Source of the DNA: Eledone cirrhosa
Taxonomy: Eukaryota
Length of the DNA stretch: 64,000 nt
NCBI GenBank assembly: GCA_964016885.1
Contig: OZ024742.1
Coordinates: 69,378,001-69,442,000, forward strand
Direction of reading: 5' to 3'
Shown one piece after another: positions 520 through 11,333 of the stretch (the stretch's first letter is position 1; every line of letters starts with the position of its first letter). Position numbers and translations under genes: made by a program. The notes below the pieces were generated by a model. It searched no databases and was not told where the DNA came from. It saw only the letters and a program-made list of their open reading frames with translations.

Positions 520-663
520 AAGAAAAATTATACGATGTATTTATTTCCTATAAATCTTCACCCAAAGACGAATTTTGGGTGAAAAACATTCTTTTTCCGA
601 AGATTGAAAATGACATGAGATTGAAAGCCTGTATCCACTTTCGCGATTTCATCCCTGGTGAGA
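520..663 (+). CDS. TIR-domain protein (Toll-like/IL-1 receptor-like), penultimate coding exon
   Basis: Acceptor ttttttttcattttcAG at 518-519; translates EKLYDVFISYKSSPKDEFWVKNILFPKIENDMRLKACIHFRDFIPGE (TIR box 1 YDVFISY, box 2 RDFIPG); phase-1 donor GTATGT at 664. Not in the ORF track because it has no start codon. Confidence 0.9.
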
Positions 664-1267
664 GTATGTATCCATCGTGTATTCCTTTCTCTGACAATCG
701 AATAGTGTTACCTTGGTGTAAGTAGAGAATATCCAGTATAATTGTATCATTGATGAACAACTTCTCTATGGATATGCTATCTAGAGGGCGTACTACATCT
801 TGACAACAATGAGTGACTGATTAAATGTCGAAACGACTGGTTATTAAGACATGATTTTCTAGACTATCATCCACATCTTATAGTAAGTAGTCTACACAAA
901 ATTTAGATCAGTTTGATATTTGACTGTCATCAAATGATTGTAAATAGTATAAATATACACTATTAAGATGGGTTTAACACTCAGAACAGATATAGCTTTA
1001 TTGTGCATGGGCGGTGTTTGCTTTGGAACGGTACATACAGTGAATTTGTCATCAGTCAGAACGTCTGTGTGTGAAATAGTTTTGACGATTAGATTAATGT
1101 CATAAGCATAACAGGTGTACAGAGGTATGCCTGGTACTGCTATATTTAGTTATCTATTATACATTAAGAAATTACTGCAATCCAATAAAGCATTATGTAA
1201 TTGTTCAGACAAATCTAGAAACCTATATAAAATCAATAAAATAATACTGAAACAAATATGACATAAT

Positions 1268-1370
1268 TGTTTCTACCCTCGGCGGGATTTGAACTCAGAA
1301 TGGAAAGGGCCGGAACTCTATGCGTCAAAGTATGGCGTCCGACCCTCTACCGATACTGCCAATCCACCGC
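1268..1370 (-). mobile_element. tRNA-derived SINE, internally deleted, with 20-bp TSD
   Basis: tRNA-like head joined directly to the last ~12 nt of the tail; TSD tgaaacaaatatgacataat at 1248-1267 and 1371-1390. Confidence 0.85.
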
Positions 1371-1599
1371 TGAAACAAATATGACATAATGCGAATCAAA
1401 CACTAGCACATGATATTAATAACGAAGTAAGATACATGACAAATGAAAGTAAAAGTATATAAACAAATAGATTACTGAGAATATTAGCTAGACGCTTAAC
1501 GTTTATAAATATTACTACTTGTATGTTAAACTTTGTATTTAATCTTAAATGCAGGTTAATTAACTCAGCTAAATCCCACATATTATTAGTCGGAAACGA

Positions 1600-1785
1600 G
1601 CGGTGGATTGGCAGTATAGGTAGAGGGACGGACGCCATGCTTTGCAACATAGAGTTACTGCCCTTTCCAATCTGATTTCAAATCCCGCCAAGGTTAACTT
1701 TGCCTTTCATCCTTACTGGGTCGATAAAATAAAGCACCAGTAATACACTGGGATAATTGCTGGCCTTGTGCCAAAAGTAGAAACA
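1600..1785 (+). mobile_element. tRNA-derived SINE, full length (~190 bp)
   Basis: A-box-like tggcagtataggt, B-box-like gatttcaaatcc (gagttcaaatcc in sister copies), central gcctttcatccttactgggtcgataaaat, tail gtagaaacaattatt; TSD attattagtc(g/a)gaaac at 1582-1597 and 1786-1801. Confidence 0.9.
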
Positions 1786-2000
1786 ATTATTAGTCAGAAA
1801 CATTTAGATAATATTAACGATAATATTAGTAAAGTCAGCAAATAATAATAGTGATGATGTTATCAGCTGGTTCTATAGTATCGATAATTAGTACATTTAG
1901 AGATTTACTAAATTCAATATTGTTGAGTTTAACTGTTAGTTATTCAAGTCACTACTATGCAGCGCACTAGAATTTGCTAAGAGGGTAGCGATATAAAAAT

Positions 2001-2178
2001 AATTGTTTCTACTTTAGGCACAAGGCCAGCAAATACCCAGTGCATTACTGGTACTTTATTTTATCGACCCCGTAAGGATGACAGGCAAAGTCAACCTCGG
2101 CGGGATTTGAACTCAGATCGTAAAGGGATGTAACTATGCTGGAAAGCATGGCGTCCGACCCTCTGCCGATACTGCCAA
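2001..2178 (-). mobile_element. tRNA-derived SINE, near full length
   Basis: Reverse complement of the 1600-1785 family sequence. Confidence 0.9.
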
Positions 2179-2724
2179 AAAAATAATAATGCCTGCTAGA
2201 AAACCCGGATTTTTTATACGAACTCTACCCGGATAACAAAATATAACCCCAAACTTTATTTTGACATTAACATGGGTTCATTTGACAGTGTAGATATAGG
2301 CAATCTTGTTGGACAATGTTTTAGATGAACTCACTAATAAATTTATAACTACACAATCCGGTTATCTGTAACAAAAACACTAAAGATCGCTCTATATATA
2401 AATTAAGAAAGGAAATTGTCCACACTTTTATCACTCTCAGCCTTAAAATAAATATAGGTATTCGCTTAAGTCTAGTTAACTTCGTTTCTGTTTCACAAAA
2501 TAAAAAGGTCCCATAAAATATCTCATATTAGAGTAGGATCAACATAATCAAGAGAAAGTTTTCCAGTCTCTTTTCTAGATAGGATATACTCGATACGGCA
2601 CCTCCCTACAAGCAAACGAATTCATATAGAAAATTACCTAAATTTTCATAAACAAGTACTTCTGTACCAACCAAATATAGTACTGGTTTAGTAAATATAG
2701 ACAATATCTTGCTATCAATATATG

Positions 2725-2896
2725 GTTGGTAGAGAAGCATTTGTTTAGGAGATTTAGAGCATATCTGTTAGCATAGATTTAACGCTAAGTTAAAATATTG
2801 TGTTAGATTAGTTTAAGGATGCACGAACTAAAGCGAGTAGCTAATTTTCTATTTGAATTTCGTTGGAAAATTCGTATTTTCTGGTATTTTAGATAT
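2725..2896. repeat. Left arm of ~170-bp inverted repeat (partner 3903-4072)
   Basis: tttaaggatgcacgaactaaagcgagtagctaattttctatttgaatt is matched in reverse complement at ~3940-3987; similarity extends ~170 bp with scattered mismatches. Confidence 0.9.
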
Positions 2897-2941
2897 GTGT
2901 ATATTTATCTACACATCATATATATATGTATACATATACAC

Positions 2942-2944
<3 letters not shown>

Positions 2945-3021
<77 letters not shown>
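2945..3021. repeat. (TA)n microsatellite
   Basis: Direct reading. Confidence 0.95.
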
Positions 3022-3024
<3 letters not shown>

Positions 3025-3094
3025 AAACAGCCCGAATTACGCCGTACAGTGTTTAGGCAACCACGTCACCTTTTTGTTCGACACTGACACAGAA

Positions 3095-3137
3095 ACGATG
3101 TACTAGTTTCAAGCTTATTAGCTATCGTCAGCATCGT
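3095..3137 (-). ncRNA. Minimal type-I hammerhead ribozyme motif (Penelope-like type)
   Basis: Minus strand reads acgaug-CUGACGA-u agcu aaua agcu u-GAAA-cuag-UA-caucgu: perfect 6-bp stem I, 4-bp stem II, palindromic ACUAGU stem III, GUA cleavage triplet. Confidence 0.75.
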
Positions 3138-3600
3138 ATACCTTCCTGCCAGATGGTTGAACGTCTGAAAGTATATACTTTCCTTATGCATATTAACGGC
3201 TGAGCAGCCTAATTTGCATATCGAGTGAGTTTAGACGGCCGGGCGCACCGAAAACGATAAATGGAATAGAATGAAACGAAATTTCATTTCTCACTCTTAG
3301 TACGGCAGTTACTTAAATGTAAGTATGCATGTATGTATATATATGCATGTAAGTATGCATGTATGTATATATATCCATGTATGTATACGTACATACATAT
3401 ATGTATACAGACGTACGTACGCTGAACATTTTTTCTCTTCGATTTATATGAAATTTGATATATTACAAAAAATAATGTTTTCCAATTGTTCATGCATTAC
3501 ATTTTACATTGAGTAATATTGAAATGCAGAGTTTTTCTCCATAAATTATTTCATTGATTTATAATCAATCATCATTTTCTTACAAAAAAAAATGTGTGAA

Positions 3601-3628
3601 ACGCAGCAAGGCGCGGGTAATTCGGCTA

Positions 3629-3629
<1 letters not shown>
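3601..3629 (+). mobile_element. Probable Helitron 3' terminus
   Basis: GC-rich cgcagcaaggcgcgggta followed ~8 nt later by CTAG and then T; 5' end not located. Confidence 0.55.
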
Positions 3630-3667
<38 letters not shown>

Positions 3668-3838
3668 AGAAATATTCCTGTACCAAAGCACAGCCACTAT
3701 TCTTACAACTAACTAAGATGTGTGCACTCTGAACTACGGGTTCCAGTATCATTACAGAAATTTCTCAGATTTATTGACTGGGTGAGGCGTGGACCGGAAG
3801 AGACCGTTAAGTTAATATCAACGATTTTCGTAAACCTT

Positions 3839-3880
<42 letters not shown>

Positions 3881-3902
3881 TTGTGTGTGTGTGTGTGTAT
3901 AT

Positions 3903-4068
3903 ATATCTAAAGTGCCAGAAAATATGAATTTCCCAAGCAAATTCAAATAGAAAATTAGCTACTCGCTTTAGTTCGTGCATCCTTAAACTAATCTAACAAT
4001 ATTTTAACTTAGCGTTAAATCTATGTTAGCAGATATTCTCTAAATTTCCTAAACAAATGCGTCTCTAC

Positions 4069-4072
<4 letters not shown>
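3903..4072. repeat. Right arm of ~170-bp inverted repeat (partner 2725-2896)
   Basis: Reverse complement of 2725-2896. Confidence 0.9.

Positions 4073-4143
<71 letters not shown>
4073..4143. repeat. (TA)n microsatellite
   Basis: Direct reading. Confidence 0.95.
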
Positions 4144-4144
<1 letters not shown>

Positions 4145-4454
4145 CAGTAAATTTATAATTTATAATAAACGAAGCCAAATTTTACATATTTAACTTAATT
4201 ATTTTATTTTACATTACTCCGGAGTAAAGAAACCAGCCTGCCTACTTCGTCGAGTGTTCCAATCTGCATACTGAGGTGTCGGTAAACAACCAACATATAC
4301 TAAATATATATATATATATATATATATATGCAAAAGTTTTATTTAAATTGTTGGGATACAACAAGCAAATATTTTTATAACTGATATAAAGCACTCGCCA
4401 AATATTTGGAGTAGATATACGATATTAATAAATGGAAACTATATTTATAAAACC

Positions 4455-4530
4455 ATATTTATTTCATTATATATATTTCAAGGATACCAAGTTACATTAT
4501 GGTATGCCTTCATCAGACAAAATACAATAT
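4455..4530 (-). ncRNA. Minimal hammerhead ribozyme motif (left palindrome arm)
   Basis: Exact mirror copy of 4671-4746. Confidence 0.6.
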
Positions 4531-4670
4531 ATAACAGTTTTATAAATAGACATTGACGTATCCCTTTAAAAATTGACCGTTGCTTTTGGCGGCCATCAGG
4601 ATAGATGGCCTCCAAAAGCAACGGTCAATTTTTAAAGGGATACGTCAATGTCTATTTATAAAACTGTTAT

Positions 4671-4746
4671 ATATTGTATTTTGTCTGATGAAGGCATACC
4701 ATAATGTAACTTGGTATCCTTGAAATATATATAATGAAATAAATAT
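4671..4746 (+). ncRNA. Minimal hammerhead ribozyme motif (right palindrome arm)
   Basis: auauuguauuuugu-CUGAUGA(4685-4691)-agg c auacca..loop..ugguau ccu u-GAAA(4722-4725)-uauaua-UA-augaaauaaauau; stem I 13 bp with two G-U pairs and one bulge, palindromic stem III, AUA triplet. Confidence 0.6.
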
Positions 4747-4781
4747 GGTTTTATAAATATAGTTTCCATTTATTAATATCG

Positions 4782-4838
<57 letters not shown>

Positions 4839-5244
4839 GAAGATATATATAAAGATACAAAGCTTAGCGTTGTTTTGAAAATTAGATAGTGAAATAGAGC
4901 TTCTGCCGTATTTTCGACTAAGTAAATTAGCCTAATAGTTGGAGTTATAAAAAAACCACAGAATGGAAAAAGGATGAGCATTGATGTACATGGGACACAA
5001 AACCACAAAATTAGCTTTTCAAAATGGCTGACTGAATACATATGTTTTTTCTCAATTTTTTTTTTCGTTCCTTTTTCTTCTCACTCTTAATCTTTCTATT
5101 TCATCTTTATTTACCATTCTATCTTTTGATCTATCATTTCAAGTCATTTAATAATATATTCCTTCACTGTACCCTTTCGTTTGCTGTTATTTCTATTTAC
5201 ATTTTACACACACACACACACACACGCATATATACATATATATA

Positions 5245-6551
5245 CAGGGTGTTCGGGATAAATTTGACAGTTTCATCAGGAAAAAGAAAAAGTGCTTGGT
5301 ATCTACAAAATTTATTTGATTTTAAAAAAATTCAATGGACAAGGAAATTACACTATTGTCAAAGAGTTTTACTCAAAATAACCGCCATTAGCGTCTATTA
5401 CAGCCTCAATCCGGGCCCAGAACCTGGAGCAAGCTGATTTTACACTTTCCCTGGGAAGGCCCTCAAAAACTACTTTAATTCTGTCGATTAACTGGGCTTT
5501 TGTAGTACTGGCACGGCAATTGGTGTCTTTCTCTACAGCGCCCCATACATAATAGTCCATCGGGTTAAGATCAGGGGAGTTCGGAGGCCAAACATTGGGA
5601 CTGGTGTAGTCGTAAAAATTGGCTGACAACCATTTTTGACTTTTCCCCGAGGTGTGGCAGGGGGCCGAATCCTGCTGCCATACATACGGCCTATTATTGG
5701 CTACCCTTGTTATCCAGGGCTTAACTACAGTAGTTAGCAATTCCACGTAGGCATCTGAATTCAACCTGAGACCTTGTTTGAAAAAATGCGGAGGCATCAC
5801 ATCACCCTCGGAGGACACACATCCCAAAACCATGACAGTTTGGGAAAATTTAGTCTGCATGACTCGAGGAGTGTTCTTTGGACTGTATGCAAGTCATCTG
5901 TTATTCTGCATGTTGTGTTTTTGATCTTGGCAAAACTTTTTCTCATCGGAAAAGAACCAGATTGTTTGTGCTTCAGCAGGATGTTTCACTTTGCTCAGAA
6001 GTTTCTTCGCCTTTGTCAGACGATTTTCGCGGGCCTTTTCTGTGAGAAGTTGACCTCTGCGACGCTTGTATGAGTAGTAGCGAAGGTCTTCATTGAGTGC
6101 AACTTTCATAGTAGAGGCTGAAACATTCAATTCACGCGACAAAGACCGAATTCCGATGCCAGGGTCCTCCAACACTTTTTTCTGCAGATTTTCGATGAAT
6201 TCTGCTGTGCGAGAGCAATCAGATCTTCTGTTATGTTTCTTTCTTCTAGCCACAGCCTCGTAGTCTCCATTGCAATTCTCCAGTTCATGCCGGATTGTTT
6301 TTTATAGTGTTCAGGGAGCATTGAGCAGCGACCATAATCTCCTTATTTTGATGGCCGGCGCGAATCATCATGATACAAGTTATTCTCTTCCATGATTCAG
6401 GTGGCTCCCAGTCATCCATTCTCGTTGTCATCACATATATGAATGAAGGAGGGTTTAAACTTTCAAATAAAGCCGAGTGGGCATGAATGAATTTAAAACA
6501 TCTGAAAAAACAATCAAATATTATTCTGTCAAATTTATCCCGAACACCCTG
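5245..6551 (-). mobile_element. Tc1/mariner DNA transposon, DD37D (maT-type), 1307 bp
   Basis: Perfect 26-bp TIRs cagggtgttcgggataaatttgacag (5245-5270, 6526-6551); TA on both flanks; internal transposase. Confidence 0.95.
5369..6431 (-). pseudogene. DD37D transposase, disrupted
   Basis: Motifs FSDEKKF, QQDSAPCH, SPDLNPMD with 37 residues between the 2nd and 3rd Asp; +1 frameshift in an A-run near 6300 and in-frame stop at 5894-5896. Confidence 0.9.
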
Positions 6552-6679
6552 TATATACTAAGTAAAGGTATCAACACACATTAAATATGTGTGATGATCA
6601 TATATATTATATACATATATATGTGTGTGTGTGTGTATATATGGAAATATGGGAATCTCATTTTCTTGTATATTTACAG

Positions 6680-6999
6680 CAATTTCCAACAACATCATCG
6701 AAAGTATCCAAAACAGCAGGAGGACGCTACTGGTACTCACCAATGACTATATACAAAGCGAATGGACGCGGATGGAGTACCAAGTCGCCCAGCAGGAAAT
6801 GTTAAAATTTCGTCACAGAATTATCCCAGTTATTTTCGATGATGTTAAAAATTTAGAAATCAAGGACAAAAATTTGAAATTTATCATCGAATCGGTGACC
6901 TATCTTGAGTGGCCATCCAATTCAAATTGCTTTCAGCGTCAGGCTATTTTTTGGGAGAATCTGAAGAAGATTTTACCTAAAAATGCCAAATGCATCTAA
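6680..6999 (+). CDS. TIR-domain protein, last coding exon
   Basis: ISNNIIESIQNSRRTLLVLTNDYIQSEWTRMEYQVA...YLEWP...FWENLKKILP (TIR C-terminal half, box 3 FW); stop TAA 6997-6999. Confidence 0.92.
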
Positions 7000-7781: not shown

Positions 7782-10700
7782 ACTTTCTTTATTAACCACA
7801 AGGGTTGACACAAAATAGACATTAAGGACAGTACATGACGGTACAAATGGGTATTTCTGCGTGTAAAAAAAAAAGAACAGAGGATTTAACTAAAAAAGAA
7901 ACAATGAAAAATTCCCCAATAGGGGGGAGATTCCGAGGGACATTCGTGGAGAAAGCCCATTAAAGAAGCCACGGTGACCCTGACCACCAGGGCAAGTGCC
8001 CTCTCCCAGTTTTCCACCTTCAATTTACAGGAAAATACTCAGAGTAGGCCCATTCACACGGGCCATTCTTGCCTCTCTCACCCATCTTTCAACAAAATTC
8101 TGGGAAGAAAGCACTTCCCTCTCTACCCTGATTTTCCTTTTCAAATGAAATTTGAAAAAGTTAATCAGGCCATCACCTAAGAGGTAAGTGCTCGTCTTCA
8201 GCCCTTTCAAACGTGTCCATTATACTATCTCTTTCGCCATGGCCCCCAGACAGATAAAAACTGCACGCGACAGCAGGTGTTCGACATAAACCCACAAGTC
8301 AGCAATGCTCGGACACTGGACGAGTGCGTGCAGGACGGTTTCGTCGCCCTGCGCGCATCTCGGACATGCCCGGCTGACGGCACCTCCATGCCTGTAGAGT
8401 TTGTCCCGAACTGGCAAAGCTCCTCGGTAGGCCAGGGATTTCAGGAAATTGTCCATAGGCCCCGGCCCGAAAGTTCTTCCGAAGAGATTGGCTAGTTGAT
8501 TTTCGTCGACGCGTAGAGTTTCCCCAACTATGTCGTCGCTCTTCCCCTCCACCAATCCTCTATAGAACTCCAAAGTGGAGTCCACCGATCACATAGCCCG
8601 ATTGGTCGAGGGCTGTGAACGCCTGAAGACATTCCAGTCTCTAAGCGCTCTATCTCGGTCTTCGGTTGACCCGGGACTGCAGCTCCGTGAAGGAGACGAA
8701 CTGGGGAAAGACGCCTCTAGCAAACGGCGACCACACCTGATCACCGTCGAGGAAGAGGTGGAGATGTCGTAGCCTGAGCGCGTGTCTGCGCATCATCAGC
8801 CACGGCATTCCCAGCCCTCCACGTAGCGGGGGTTGACAGCAGATGGACCCCCTGACAATTGAAGCGCGTCCCTTAAACAAAATGCGAAATGCAAACGCTC
8901 CAGCGCAGTCAGGCGAAGCTTAGGACAAGACACGACGGTCAGGCGGTAGTAGATGACGGACGAGATGTACGCATTCGCCACCTCCGCTCGACCTTTCTCA
9001 TTTCTGGGTGAGAGAAGCCACTCTGCTCGTCAGCTCGTCCCAGTTTTTGTCCGTCTAGAGGTCCGGACCGAACCAGACGCCTAGTAATTTAACCGGTCCG
9101 TCCGTCCAGCGCCCGACGACGCTGTTGGACGGCATGGACATGCCTTTCCAGATGCCGAGCTGCAGGCCCACCGACTTTTCCTGGTTGATCATTGCTCCTG
9201 TCACCGCTTCGTATTCTCTTAGTGTAGTGACCATCGCCTCGATGTGTTTGGCGTTCGACACGACTAAGGTGACTTCGTCTGCATATGCTGACACGGATCT
9301 TCCGCATCCTAGTTTGCGCGGGACTCCCTCAACGTCTCCAGTTTGTGCAGTAATGGCTCGAGAGTCAATACGTACAAGAGGGACGAGAGGGGACTTCCTT
9401 GGCGGACCGAGCACATGATGTTGAACGGTTCCGAAAGGTGACCGTTCACTCTCACCACAGAGCAGATGTCGCTGTGCATGGCAGCGATCAAGCCTCTGAA
9501 GACGGGCCCGAAGCCAGCCGCCCTCAGGATTGCCGCCAGATAATGATAGTCGACCCTATCGAAAGTTTTCGATTGATCTAAATTGATCAAGGACCCACCC
9601 GTGCCAGGTTCCCTAGCTACCCTCTCCACGATGTATCGCATAAGATGGAGGTTGTCGTGGATGGATCTATCTGGAATGGCGCATGTCTGCGCCTCTCCCA
9701 CCAGACCACCAACGACAAGCGCCAACCTCTTTGGTAGCACCTTGGCCAAAATCTTGAACACTGTGTTTAGCAGAGTTATGGGCCTAAAATTATCTATGTT
9801 ATCCCCCTTATTCGGATCCTTTCTCAGCAGCACCACCGATTCTCGGCTCACAGAGCTGGGAATTCTCCCGTTCTGTTGCCAGTTGCAGTTGACGTCCGCC
9901 AAGAGGCCTCCGTCAAGTCTGGTATCTGTACGTAAAGTTTATAGGGCAGAGCATCTAAAACAGGCGATTTACAGCGGCTGTTATCGGATTTTCGCAACAC
10001 TCCGCCTCAGTGGCCGAGAGCCGCGGCAGTCCGTCGAGGTAGACACTAAAGTCCATCCCTCGATCCGGCCCGCCGCTGTGCCCGAACAACTGTGCGAAGT
10101 GTCGCTGAAAAGCTTCACACATTTGCCTGGGATCGAGTATCATGCGCCCGTCGTGGTCCACCAAAGACCGGATCGTGGCTTTGTTGCCACGACGCGCCTC
10201 CGCCACTCAGGCCCATTGAACGGCTTTCGTCCCCTCGTGTCTGAGAGCACGCACCCTAGCTCTGACAATGCAGCCTTCGTTCTTTGCATTGAAGTATTGG
10301 TCAAGGGCCAATTTCGCTGCAAGTACGTCGGTCGCGATGCCTTAGCTAAGCACTTCGTCTAATTCTCTAACTAGTTCTCCCTCTGCTCTATTTTTCTCTA
10401 TTGCTAAAGCCTTACTAAACCTAATGGTCTTTATTCTAATCGCTGTTTTCAGAGCAAACCACCACTTGTTGTTGACGATGGCCCTATCAACGCCCGCTTA
10501 ACTAGTTCGCTAATCCGGTCTTTTTATAGGCCTTGTGCGCTGGTAATGATGCCTTTAGCTTCCAGTAGCCGGGTCCTTGTCTATGAAGCCTATCTAAGTC
10601 AACTACACAGATCAGGAATTTGTGGTCCGTGTAGCTGACTATCTTGAATTGTGGACAGCCTATGCTAGACCTATCTATTTCCCTACAAAATACTCTATCT

Positions 10701-11333
10701 AGATATGATCTGGATGACCCGATACGGTTTGTCCAAGTCTACATTGGCAAATTCGGGAAATCGAATCGGTACCTGTCAGACAGCTCAAAACGCCTGAGCA
10801 GGTTGGTGAGGCTCTTGCACCCTCCTCCCCTATCTGCTAATCCCACAAAGTCACAGCGTGCATCTAAGATCCCGTTCCAGTTGCTCACTAACACTAAAGA
10901 GCGGGACGTTCCAAGAAAGGTCTCCAGATGCCGGAAGAAATCAGGTCGCCCTGCTCCTGTCGGGGCATAGACGGCCACTATCCTGAAAGCTTGTCCGTCT
11001 CCGCTGGTCACGTCCAGCACCACCAACTTACCTTCTGGGTCCAGGAAGATGGCCCGTATGGCAAGATCCAAACCTCTCCGAAAAAGCACAGCAACTCCAC
11101 CCTCTGATCCAGGACGGCTGGAAGATGCGTACACATCGTAGCCGCCGAAGATCGGTGCGAGGGCCCGTGCTTCAGAGATTCTGGTCTCGCTGATGGCCAC
11201 CACATCTATGTTTAGTGACCTGAATTCGTTGAGCAGGTGGCCCTGCTTCCATGACGAGCCCAAGCCACGCGAATTTATGCCGCCTATTCTGAGTGAGGTC
11301 GTGTTGAAAAGGAGTGCAAAAGATGGGAAAGAC
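7782..11333 (-). mobile_element. Tx1-like LINE family A, ORF2 + 3'UTR, degenerate
   Basis: APE (AISETR, VYAP), RT (FRPITLLN, LDQSK.FDRV, SAYADE), CPRC..H..C; 3' end aataaagaaagt abuts the (TAA)n tract; many frameshifts and deletions. Confidence 0.9.

What the first reader, a model, noticed from the sequence alone, without database searches (positions are those of the whole stretch)
4415..4786. 372-bp palindrome whose arms each carry a hammerhead ribozyme motif
Seen: 183-bp arms with one mismatch and a 6-nt loop. The right arm contains CUGAUGA-stem II-GAAA-palindromic stem III-UA with a 13-bp stem I (4671-4746), and the left arm is the same motif on the other strand. Known: Penelope-like elements carry minimal hammerheads with palindromic stem III, proposed to cleave as dimers, and they often leave inverted terminal arrangements. 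Inference: a recent fold-back insertion or non-autonomous element. In the TIR-gene pre-mRNA the sense ribozyme is preceded by its own antisense, so the 183-bp hairpin would mask cleavage and form a strong ADAR/Dicer substrate inside an innate-immunity gene.
Basis: partly seen in the sequence, partly recalled or inferred. Interest (0 to 1): 0.75.

Follow-up and report, generated by a model that had tools for sequence, protein, structure and literature searches.

The report
Head-to-head Penelope-type stub, octopus intron
The mirror-image stretch with a hammerhead (self-cutting RNA) motif on each strand is really in the sequence, but it is one copy of a very abundant repeat and likely the ordinary back-to-back footprint that Penelope-type jumping genes leave in TA repeats, here in an intron of a likely octopus gene, and its ribozyme is predicted to be locked shut.

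Summary
Observation confirmed: arms 4415-4597 and 4604-4786, 6-nt loop, one mismatch, and a type I hammerhead layout at 4671-4746 mirrored on the minus strand. The unit is larger than reported. Reads show that the left flank (about 4331-4414) belongs to the same high-copy repeat, that many copies end at the 4415/4786 position into (TA)n, and that the loop is family sequence of the left arm. The unit is therefore two 5'-short copies joined head to head, one with a tail, inside a TA repeat. That layout is published for Penelope-like elements (PMC8557442, PMC3846280), as are hammerhead pairs 100-700 bp apart on opposite strands (PMC4209133). It lies in the 6,022-nt intron of an octopod-like TIR-domain gene. 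The hairpin is predicted to mask the ribozyme, but this copy is predicted to misfold even as a single arm. No parent RT/GIY-YIG gene was linked, and expression, editing and cleavage are untested. This scan has reported the same kind of structure at least seven times on other DNA. Verdict: a new copy of a known kind of insertion; low interest.

The parts
4295..4329 (.). (AT)n microsatellite, left half of the likely target site
   Evidence: TRF, 17 copies
4331..4414 (-). One-sided 3' extension ('tail', about 70-84 nt) of the left copy; part of the repeat family, not unique flank. Outer end not fixed exactly because the stretch laid began at 4335
   Evidence: High depth over 4335-4414 in X1, X4 and X13; single contigs run across 4415 (X1 records 3 and 4, X4 record 10, X6 record 16)
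4415..4603 (-). Left copy (left arm plus the 6-nt loop), read outward on the minus strand; 5' end at 4603; carries the private change at 4590
   Evidence: family loose ends before 4603/4604 end in the minus-strand reading of the loop; at 4590, 17 of 17 listed X1 contigs and 52 of 53 X13 reads carry the right arm's letter
4455..4530 (-). Hammerhead layout of the left copy (antisense in the TIR pre-mRNA); predicted cut between 4468 and 4467
   Evidence: Mirror of 4671-4746
4598..4603 (-). Loop: six more 5' bases of the left copy, not foreign or untemplated sequence
   Evidence: Loose ends in X1, X13, X14, X15
4604..4786 (+). Right copy, no tail; ends at a position where many family copies end into (TA)n
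   Evidence: Loose ends before the equivalent position 4415: 5,703 X13 reads with an (AT)n consensus (agreement 0.77), 62 X1 contigs, 1 X4 contig
4671..4746 (+). Type I hammerhead layout, sense to the TIR gene: stem I, CUGAUGA, stem II, GAAA, palindromic stem III, UA; predicted cut after 4733
   Evidence: no Rfam match
4787..4835 (.). (TA)n(TG)n(TA)n microsatellite, right half of the likely target site
   Evidence: Sequence; TRF (TG) 4796-4824
520..657 (+). Host exon: first part of the TIR domain (context)
   Evidence: tblastn of P0001 residues 381-429 to 519-665, 84%; AG before 520 and GT after 657
6680..6999 (+). Host exon: rest of the TIR domain to the stop codon (context); intron 658-6679
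   Evidence: Pfam TIR and TIR_2; in-frame with the first exon; best hit an Octopus sinensis protein at 78%

Best explanation
The palindrome is two 5'-short copies of the hammerhead-bearing end of a high-copy repeat, joined head to head inside a TA repeat, and is likely the footprint of one insertion made by a Penelope-like element (PLE) reverse transcriptase and endonuclease. Shown: the family is high-copy in three organism labels; one copy ends at a recurrent family end, the other runs about 80 nt further (tail); their 5' ends lie 6 nt apart; both outer ends abut (TA)n. Inferred mechanism: the endonuclease cuts both strands in (TA)n, each DNA end primes reverse transcription at one of two fixed internal sites on the element RNA (their distance is the tail), both cDNAs run through the hammerhead to nearly the same 5' point, and repair joins them. 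The palindrome is then a by-product. When the TIR gene is transcribed, the antisense arm comes first and is predicted to pair with the sense arm into a 183-bp hairpin, so the ribozyme would not cut and the intron would carry a likely ADAR substrate of no demonstrated use. The source RNA is inferred to be the pseudo-LTR of a PLE or a short non-autonomous derivative; no coding parent was linked.
For:: 6,146 records laid in X1, 33,523 reads in X13, 74 in X4, 11 in X6; tail continuous with the arm; recurrent end into (AT)n; X1 record 4 (391 nt) shows another head-to-head pair, one arm ending at 4415 and the other running into the tail; recurrent opposite-strand joints near 4534 in X13; the loop is family sequence; of 14 variable positions listed within the hammerhead, 0 fall in the 12 core positions, 6 are unpaired (5 in loop II, plus N7), 6 keep their pair, 2 break it. 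Papers: inverted 5'-truncated copy, one-sided tail and (TA)n bias (PMC8557442, passages); head-to-head inverted pLTRs (PMC3846280, passages); hammerhead pairs 100-700 bp apart on opposite strands (PMC4209133); cleavage and extension on both strands, AT-rich targets and tail equal to the distance between two RT start sites (PMC11167929).
Against: No RT or GIY-YIG sequence was tied to this family: the 41-codon frame in the arm gave only one spurious repetitive hit, and the hammerhead of Hydra-1_Obim is different. The tail (about 70-84 nt) is longer than the published 30-40 bp. Stem II lacks the conserved G10.1-C11.1 pair. Core conservation is weak statistically (P = 0.07) and 28 of 68 variants were not shown. 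In X1 record 4 the two arms differ from the window by 23 and 3 letters, so that pair is not a near-perfect palindrome. The recurrent short end falls on a TATAT stretch, so fold-back synthesis followed by annealing to (TA)n would give the same end; twin priming is not proven over fold-back. Loose ends upstream of the loop differ between runs beyond about 13 nt, with no common continuation into a coding region.
Confidence: 0.65

Rival explanations
1. The family is a non-LTR retrozyme: a short non-coding tandem or circular RNA unit with a type I hammerhead that borrows PLE enzymes. This locus is a two-armed insertion of less than one or about one unit per arm. Same insertion route, different parent.
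For: No coding parent found. The stem I of 13-14 pairs and the palindromic stem III resemble canonical metazoan type I hammerheads more than the 4-5-bp stem I of minimal PLE motifs (PMC4209133). The left copy is about 273 nt, near retrozyme unit sizes (PMC7229834 passages). Shared sequence seems to stop about 13 nt upstream of the loop. Unreviewed scan notes report PLE-mobilised retrozymes in this genome.
Against: None of the 15 joints shown (of 18) links the tail end back to the 5' end. Depth falls more than 100-fold from the hammerhead to the centre (X13: about 8,200 at 4515-4523, about 44 at 4596-4603), which a tandem unit would not give, although diverged subfamilies account for part of the fall (loose ends behind 4531, 4,775 reads).
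Confidence: 0.2
2. Fold-back artefact of sequencing or assembly.
For: No contig of X1 carries the left arm's letter at 4590 and none spans the loop (0 of 23 laid); X14 0 of 8 and X15 0 of 6 reads span it. No genome or long reads were available.
Against: The right arm stops at a recurrent family end and both outer ends sit in TA repeats. The arms differ at one base, and the left arm holds the private letter. The TIR exons on either side are collinear and in frame. The depth columns imply that 1 of 10 X13 reads lies across both arms and the loop (my inference; one read, below the tool's listing threshold).
Confidence: 0.05
3. A co-opted regulatory device: a self-masking ribozyme hairpin that tunes splicing, editing or silencing of the TIR gene.
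For: The geometry is right: antisense arm first, hairpin at -289.9 kcal/mol. Octopus has very high hyper-editing and abundant near-perfect dsRNA (PMC5625713 passages).
Against: The geometry follows from head-to-head insertion in any transcribed region. The insertion looks young. The unit lies about 3.7 kb from the donor and 1.9 kb from the acceptor. The single arm is predicted to misfold (stem I probability 0.005, active stem II register 0.006). The intron holds other inverted pairs.
Confidence: 0.05
4. A palindromic MITE-like non-autonomous DNA transposon that carries a hammerhead-like motif.
For: Long terminal inverted arms and TA flanks; a Tc1/mariner-like transposase remnant lies nearby at 5372-6301.
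Against: One arm runs about 80 nt beyond the other; most family sequence is not in this palindromic form (centre depth more than 100-fold lower; family reads continue past the loop into other sequence); the variation pattern fits selection on a hammerhead fold.
Confidence: 0.03

Closest known systems
Insertion units of endonuclease-positive Penelope-like elements: pLTR with adjacent inverted 5'-truncated copy and one-sided tail (Craig et al. 2021, PMC8557442; Arkhipova et al. 2013, PMC3846280)
   Same: Head-to-head inverted copies, tail on one side only, hammerhead in the repeated end, (TA)n target with no discernible duplication
   Different: No ORF in this stub; tail about 70-84 nt rather than 30-40; arms almost equal, only 6 nt apart at the junction; clade not assigned
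Hammerheads of metazoan PLEs (Cervera and de la Pena 2014, PMC4209133)
   Same: Type I topology, long stem II, small palindromic stem III suited to dimer cleavage; pairs 100-700 bp apart on opposite strands already reported in Schistosoma mansoni
   Different: Stem I of 13-14 pairs rather than 4-5; stem II closes on A-U without the extra base before a G-C pair; internal C-C mismatch
Poseidon PLE of Anolis carolinensis in vitro (Frangieh et al. 2024, PMC11167929)
   Same: Both strands cut and extended, AT-rich targets, two internal RT start sites that define the tail; hammerhead inactive without protein and not needed for insertion
   Different: There the ORF starts at stem II and the tail is coding; in this copy all three frames stop between the hammerhead and the tail end or lack a start
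Metazoan non-LTR retrozymes (PMC7229834; bioRxiv 10.64898/2026.07.22.740005)
   Same: Short, non-coding, low-GC, type I hammerhead, related to PLE pLTRs
   Different: No tandem same-strand copies here and no circular junction among the joints shown
Hydra-1_Obim (PMC8557442 supplement)
   Same: Octopus PLE with a 3' hammerhead and (TA)n preference
   Different: Its hammerhead row differs in core N7, stem II, loop II, stem III and flanks; not this family

Membership tests
Penelope-like element (EN+) | PLE-type reverse transcriptase and GIY-YIG endonuclease ORF attached to this end | tested here: inconclusive
   None in the stub; the 41-codon frame gave one spurious hit; no genome to walk upstream
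Penelope-like element (EN+) | Hammerhead motif within the terminal repeat | tested here: met
   (layout only; no Rfam match)
Penelope-like element (EN+) | Inverted 5'-truncated copy adjacent at the 5' end | tested here: met
   a second locus with this layout in X1 record 4
Penelope-like element (EN+) | Tail on one end only, with two recurrent 3' ends | tested here: met
   recurrent end at 4415 into (AT)n and family sequence to about 4335; length about twice the published 30-40 bp; outer end not mapped exactly
Penelope-like element (Neptune, Hydra, Naiad clades) | Insertion into (TA)n | tested here: met
Hydra-1_Obim family | Sequence identity of the hammerhead and 3' end | tested here: not met
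   Supplement row for its hammerhead differs, compared by eye
Minimal PLE hammerhead (min-HHR) | Core boxes CUGANGA, GAAA and U-H | tested here: met
   4685-4691, 4722-4725, 4732-4733
Minimal PLE hammerhead (min-HHR) | Extra base after A9 and G10.1-C11.1 pair | tested here: not met
   The continuous register is A4692-U4721, G4693-U4720, G4694-C4719
Minimal PLE hammerhead (min-HHR) | Palindromic stem III region allowing a dimer | tested here: met
   4725-4732 is self-complementary; predicted duplex -3.2 kcal/mol
Hammerhead ribozyme | Self-cleavage | not testable with these tools
   Folding predicts the active form 7-10 kcal/mol above the minimum (-3.9 or -6.8 against -14.0); the model omits core tertiary contacts and Mg2+
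Non-LTR retrozyme | Tandem same-strand units, each with a hammerhead | tested here: inconclusive
   Not at this locus; no tail-to-start joint among 15 of 18 joints shown; the unit could be longer than the stretch laid
Non-LTR retrozyme | Circular RNA of unit length | not testable with these tools
   Needs RNA data or a northern blot
MITE | Family-wide symmetric terminal inverted repeats defining both ends | tested here: not met
   Ends are staggered by the tail and family reads continue past the loop into other sequence

The most novel reading that the evidence does not exclude
Head-to-head Penelope-type stubs like this one, written by one enzyme complex copying a single RNA from both ends of a cut, are a main source of the near-perfect intronic hairpins behind the exceptional A-to-I hyper-editing of octopus; each insertion arrives with its own antisense and so silences its ribozyme and feeds ADAR from the start. 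PMC5625713 (passages read) reports octopus as an outlier for dsRNA and editing but left it out of the repeat-class analysis, and names lizard Penelope as heavily edited.
Probability: 0.15. Interest if true: 0.55.

Novelty: new member of a known kind. Interest (0 to 1): 0.18.

Why it matters
For this locus, little: it is one copy of an abundant repeat in a published insertion layout. As a class, such stubs record how PLE enzymes insert (two staggered 3' ends, near-coincident 5' ends), a step that the in vitro paper PMC11167929 leaves open, and they are ready-made long hairpins in an animal group with very high RNA editing. Both questions need a genome-wide count, not this single copy.

Tried and rejected
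No genome is held for this window, so copy counts, upstream walking and covariation on real alignments were not possible. Rfam: no hammerhead at either threshold; the hits are generic hairpin (miRNA) models. No second copy of the arm in the 64 kb (top 80 rows read, all microsatellite apart from the self hits). Sequencing-run search: no RNA holder listed; this says nothing on expression. Pattern scans: 0 hits for an exact family stretch in metagenomes; a general hammerhead pattern gave 2 viral and 1 metagenome hits, read and judged chance because they lack stems I and II or family sequence. Profile search with the 41-codon frame: 1 hit, a 1,449-aa tandem repeat without Pfam family, rejected. 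Six short motifs searched in the PMC8557442 supplement: CTGATGAAGG 0, three single hits in unrelated sequence; the file was cut when stored and line breaks can hide matches. Folding of the tail, the 5' part and the part after the cut site gave no structure above shuffles (z -0.89, 0.88, 0.05); the hammerhead region alone gave z -1.21 and -0.71. The stem I probabilities used a wrong register beyond the bulge and were redone. The stem-filtered motif scan returned nothing, not even this motif, so it is faulty and was not used. Look-ups of earlier scan notes by sequence and by relatives found no look-alike. Four paper searches showed no paper on this particular family; that is a limited search.

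Full report
Observation. The palindrome is as described: arms 4415-4597 and 4604-4786, a 6-nt loop and one mismatch at 4590/4611. It is the only such non-microsatellite palindrome in the window. The right arm has a complete type I hammerhead layout: stem I 4671-4684 with 4734-4746 (13 pairs around a bulged G), CUGAUGA at 4685-4691, stem II 4692-4721 with one C-C mismatch, GAAA at 4722-4725, a self-complementary octamer 4725-4732 and UA at 4732-4733. The core boxes alone arose in 2 of 3000 shuffles of the arm. Rfam does not recognise it: 0 hits at gathering score and no hammerhead among 28 weak hits.

Host context. Exons 520-657 and 6680-6999 join in frame across a GT-AG intron of 6,022 nt. The second exon matches Pfam TIR; the first exon alone matched no Pfam family but aligns to the same homologue. 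The best of 15 hits is an Octopus sinensis protein at 78%, and an O. vulgaris protein is 91% identical over half the exon. The host is therefore inferred to be an octopod. An immune role is inferred from the TIR domain only. The intron also holds a Tc1/mariner-like remnant and at least four other inverted pairs of 77-108 nt.

What reads show. No genome is held. Of 15 runs listed, 11 hold part of the stretch, under 8 organism labels and 7 studies; I laid 6 of them. On 4335-4603, 6,146 contigs of X1, 74 of X4, 11 of X6 and 33,523 raw reads of X13 were laid, so the arm is a high-copy, diverged repeat in three organism labels. Three things follow. First, 4335-4414 is family sequence: depth stays high and single contigs cross 4415. 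Second, many copies stop at 4415 and go into (AT)n (5,703 X13 reads), which is what the right arm does at 4786. Third, at 4590 all 17 listed X1 contigs and 52 of 53 X13 reads carry the right arm's letter, so the mismatch is a private change in the left arm. X1 record 4 is a second head-to-head pair with the same two outer ends, though its arms are not near-identical (23 and 3 differences from the window). On the centre, family reads run past 4604 into the minus-strand reading of the loop, so the loop is six more 5' bases of the left copy. Further upstream the loose ends agree for about 13 nt and then differ between runs. The depth columns imply that 1 of 10 X13 reads lies across both arms and the loop; X1 (0 of 23), X14 (0 of 8) and X15 (0 of 6) have none. 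That is weak support against an artefact; the boundary evidence is stronger.

Is the hammerhead under selection in the family? Of the 40 variants shown (28 more were not shown), 16 at 14 positions fall in the hammerhead. None touches the 12 core positions (P = 0.07), 6 positions are unpaired (5 in loop II, and N7), 6 keep their pair and 2 break one. This fits a maintained fold but is not a covariation test, and the RAD reads are dominated by few loci. This copy has G-U at 4693-4720 where 20,637 of 24,525 X13 reads (42% of X1 depth, 57% of X4) give G-C. It is predicted to slip: the active stem II register has probability 0.004-0.006 and stem I 0.005-0.05 even without the antisense arm; in the whole palindrome (-289.9 kcal/mol) both are about 0. 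These models omit tertiary contacts.

Comparison with what is known. PMC4209133 (parts 1-2 of 4 read, with passages) reports hammerheads in PLE pseudo-LTRs, pairs 100-700 bp apart on opposite strands, palindromic stem III and low activity, none as monomer. PMC8557442 (passages, the Hydra section and supplement passages) describes an inverted 5'-truncated copy next to the pLTR, a 30-40-bp tail at one end and (TA)n bias. PMC3846280 (passages) calls head-to-head the most frequent arrangement and proposes self-priming. PMC11167929 (parts 1-2 of 4) shows a purified PLE protein cutting and extending both strands at AT-rich DNA, starting reverse transcription at two internal sites whose distance is the tail, with a hammerhead that needs protein and is dispensable for insertion. 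The unit at 4331-4786 matches this layout point by point, except that its tail is about twice as long and stem II closes on A-U. It is not Hydra-1_Obim. Retrozyme papers (PMC7229834 passages; bioRxiv 10.64898/2026.07.22.740005 part 1 of 5 and passages; its supplements were not seen) give the main rival for the parent.

Mechanism. Shown: high copy number, two staggered 3' ends, head-to-head junction with a 6-nt offset, TA-repeat flanks. Inferred: a PLE enzyme cut the TA repeat and both DNA ends primed copying of the RNA at two fixed sites, after which the two cDNAs were joined near the same 5' point. The wording 'one RNA copied from both sides of the cut' comes from unreviewed notes of this scan, and I did not test it genome-wide. 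Fold-back of the first cDNA followed by annealing of its TATAT stretch to the target would give the same product and is not excluded. Either way the masking of the ribozyme follows from the geometry and needs no selection. Editing, small RNAs, cleavage and any effect on the gene are untested.

Membership. It works like a PLE insertion. Membership of a named PLE family is not shown, because no RT or endonuclease was linked. It is filed as a new, unnamed member of a known kind of insertion. Seven earlier notes of this scan, in at least three genomes, describe the same kind of structure, and an eighth a cluster of them; they are unreviewed and are not counted as support.

Verdict. Real, likely not an artefact, likely an ordinary PLE-type insertion footprint. 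Interest 0.18. The class-level link to octopus hyper-editing (PMC5625713 passages) is open and could be tested with a genome and RNA data.

Noticed in passing
window 5372-6301 (minus strand): Tc1/mariner-like transposase remnant in two frames (Pfam DDE_3 above cut-off, HTH_Tnp_Tc3_2 below cut-off) in the same TIR intron.
   Followed up: partly
window 2725-2901 and 3898-4072: Inverted pair of about 180 nt (90-94% complementary, about 1 kb apart) whose ends abut microsatellites; a second possible dsRNA source in the intron, unidentified.
   Followed up: no
window 1274-1371, 1599-1752, 2036-2135: Short dispersed repeats (SINE-like by eye) in alternating orientation forming two inverted pairs of about 100 nt at 88-89%.
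   Followed up: no
window 520-657 and 6680-6999: TIR domain split by a 6-kb phase-1 intron; relatives in molluscs, several with Pfam PF07974 (EGF-like, name recalled) ahead of TIR. Upstream exons lie outside the window.
   Followed up: partly
window 8000-64000: Dense cluster of non-LTR retrotransposon fragments: about 6 copies of an APE-RT family (Pfam RVT_1 and Exo_endo_phos on the copy at 9312-11332) at 5.5-9.7-kb spacing, interleaved with a second RT family with a C-terminal region resembling a restriction-like endonuclease (by eye).
   Followed up: no
window 4335-4603 laid on runs: Recurrent opposite-strand joints at 4533-4535 with several different partners in X13, and a large set of loose ends behind 4531 (4,775 reads): a possible subfamily boundary or preferred inversion point just 5' of stem I.
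   Followed up: no
window 4578-4645 laid on runs: Family reads share only about 13 nt upstream of the loop before diverging, which may mark a natural 5' end of the RNA close to the palindrome centre.
   Followed up: partly
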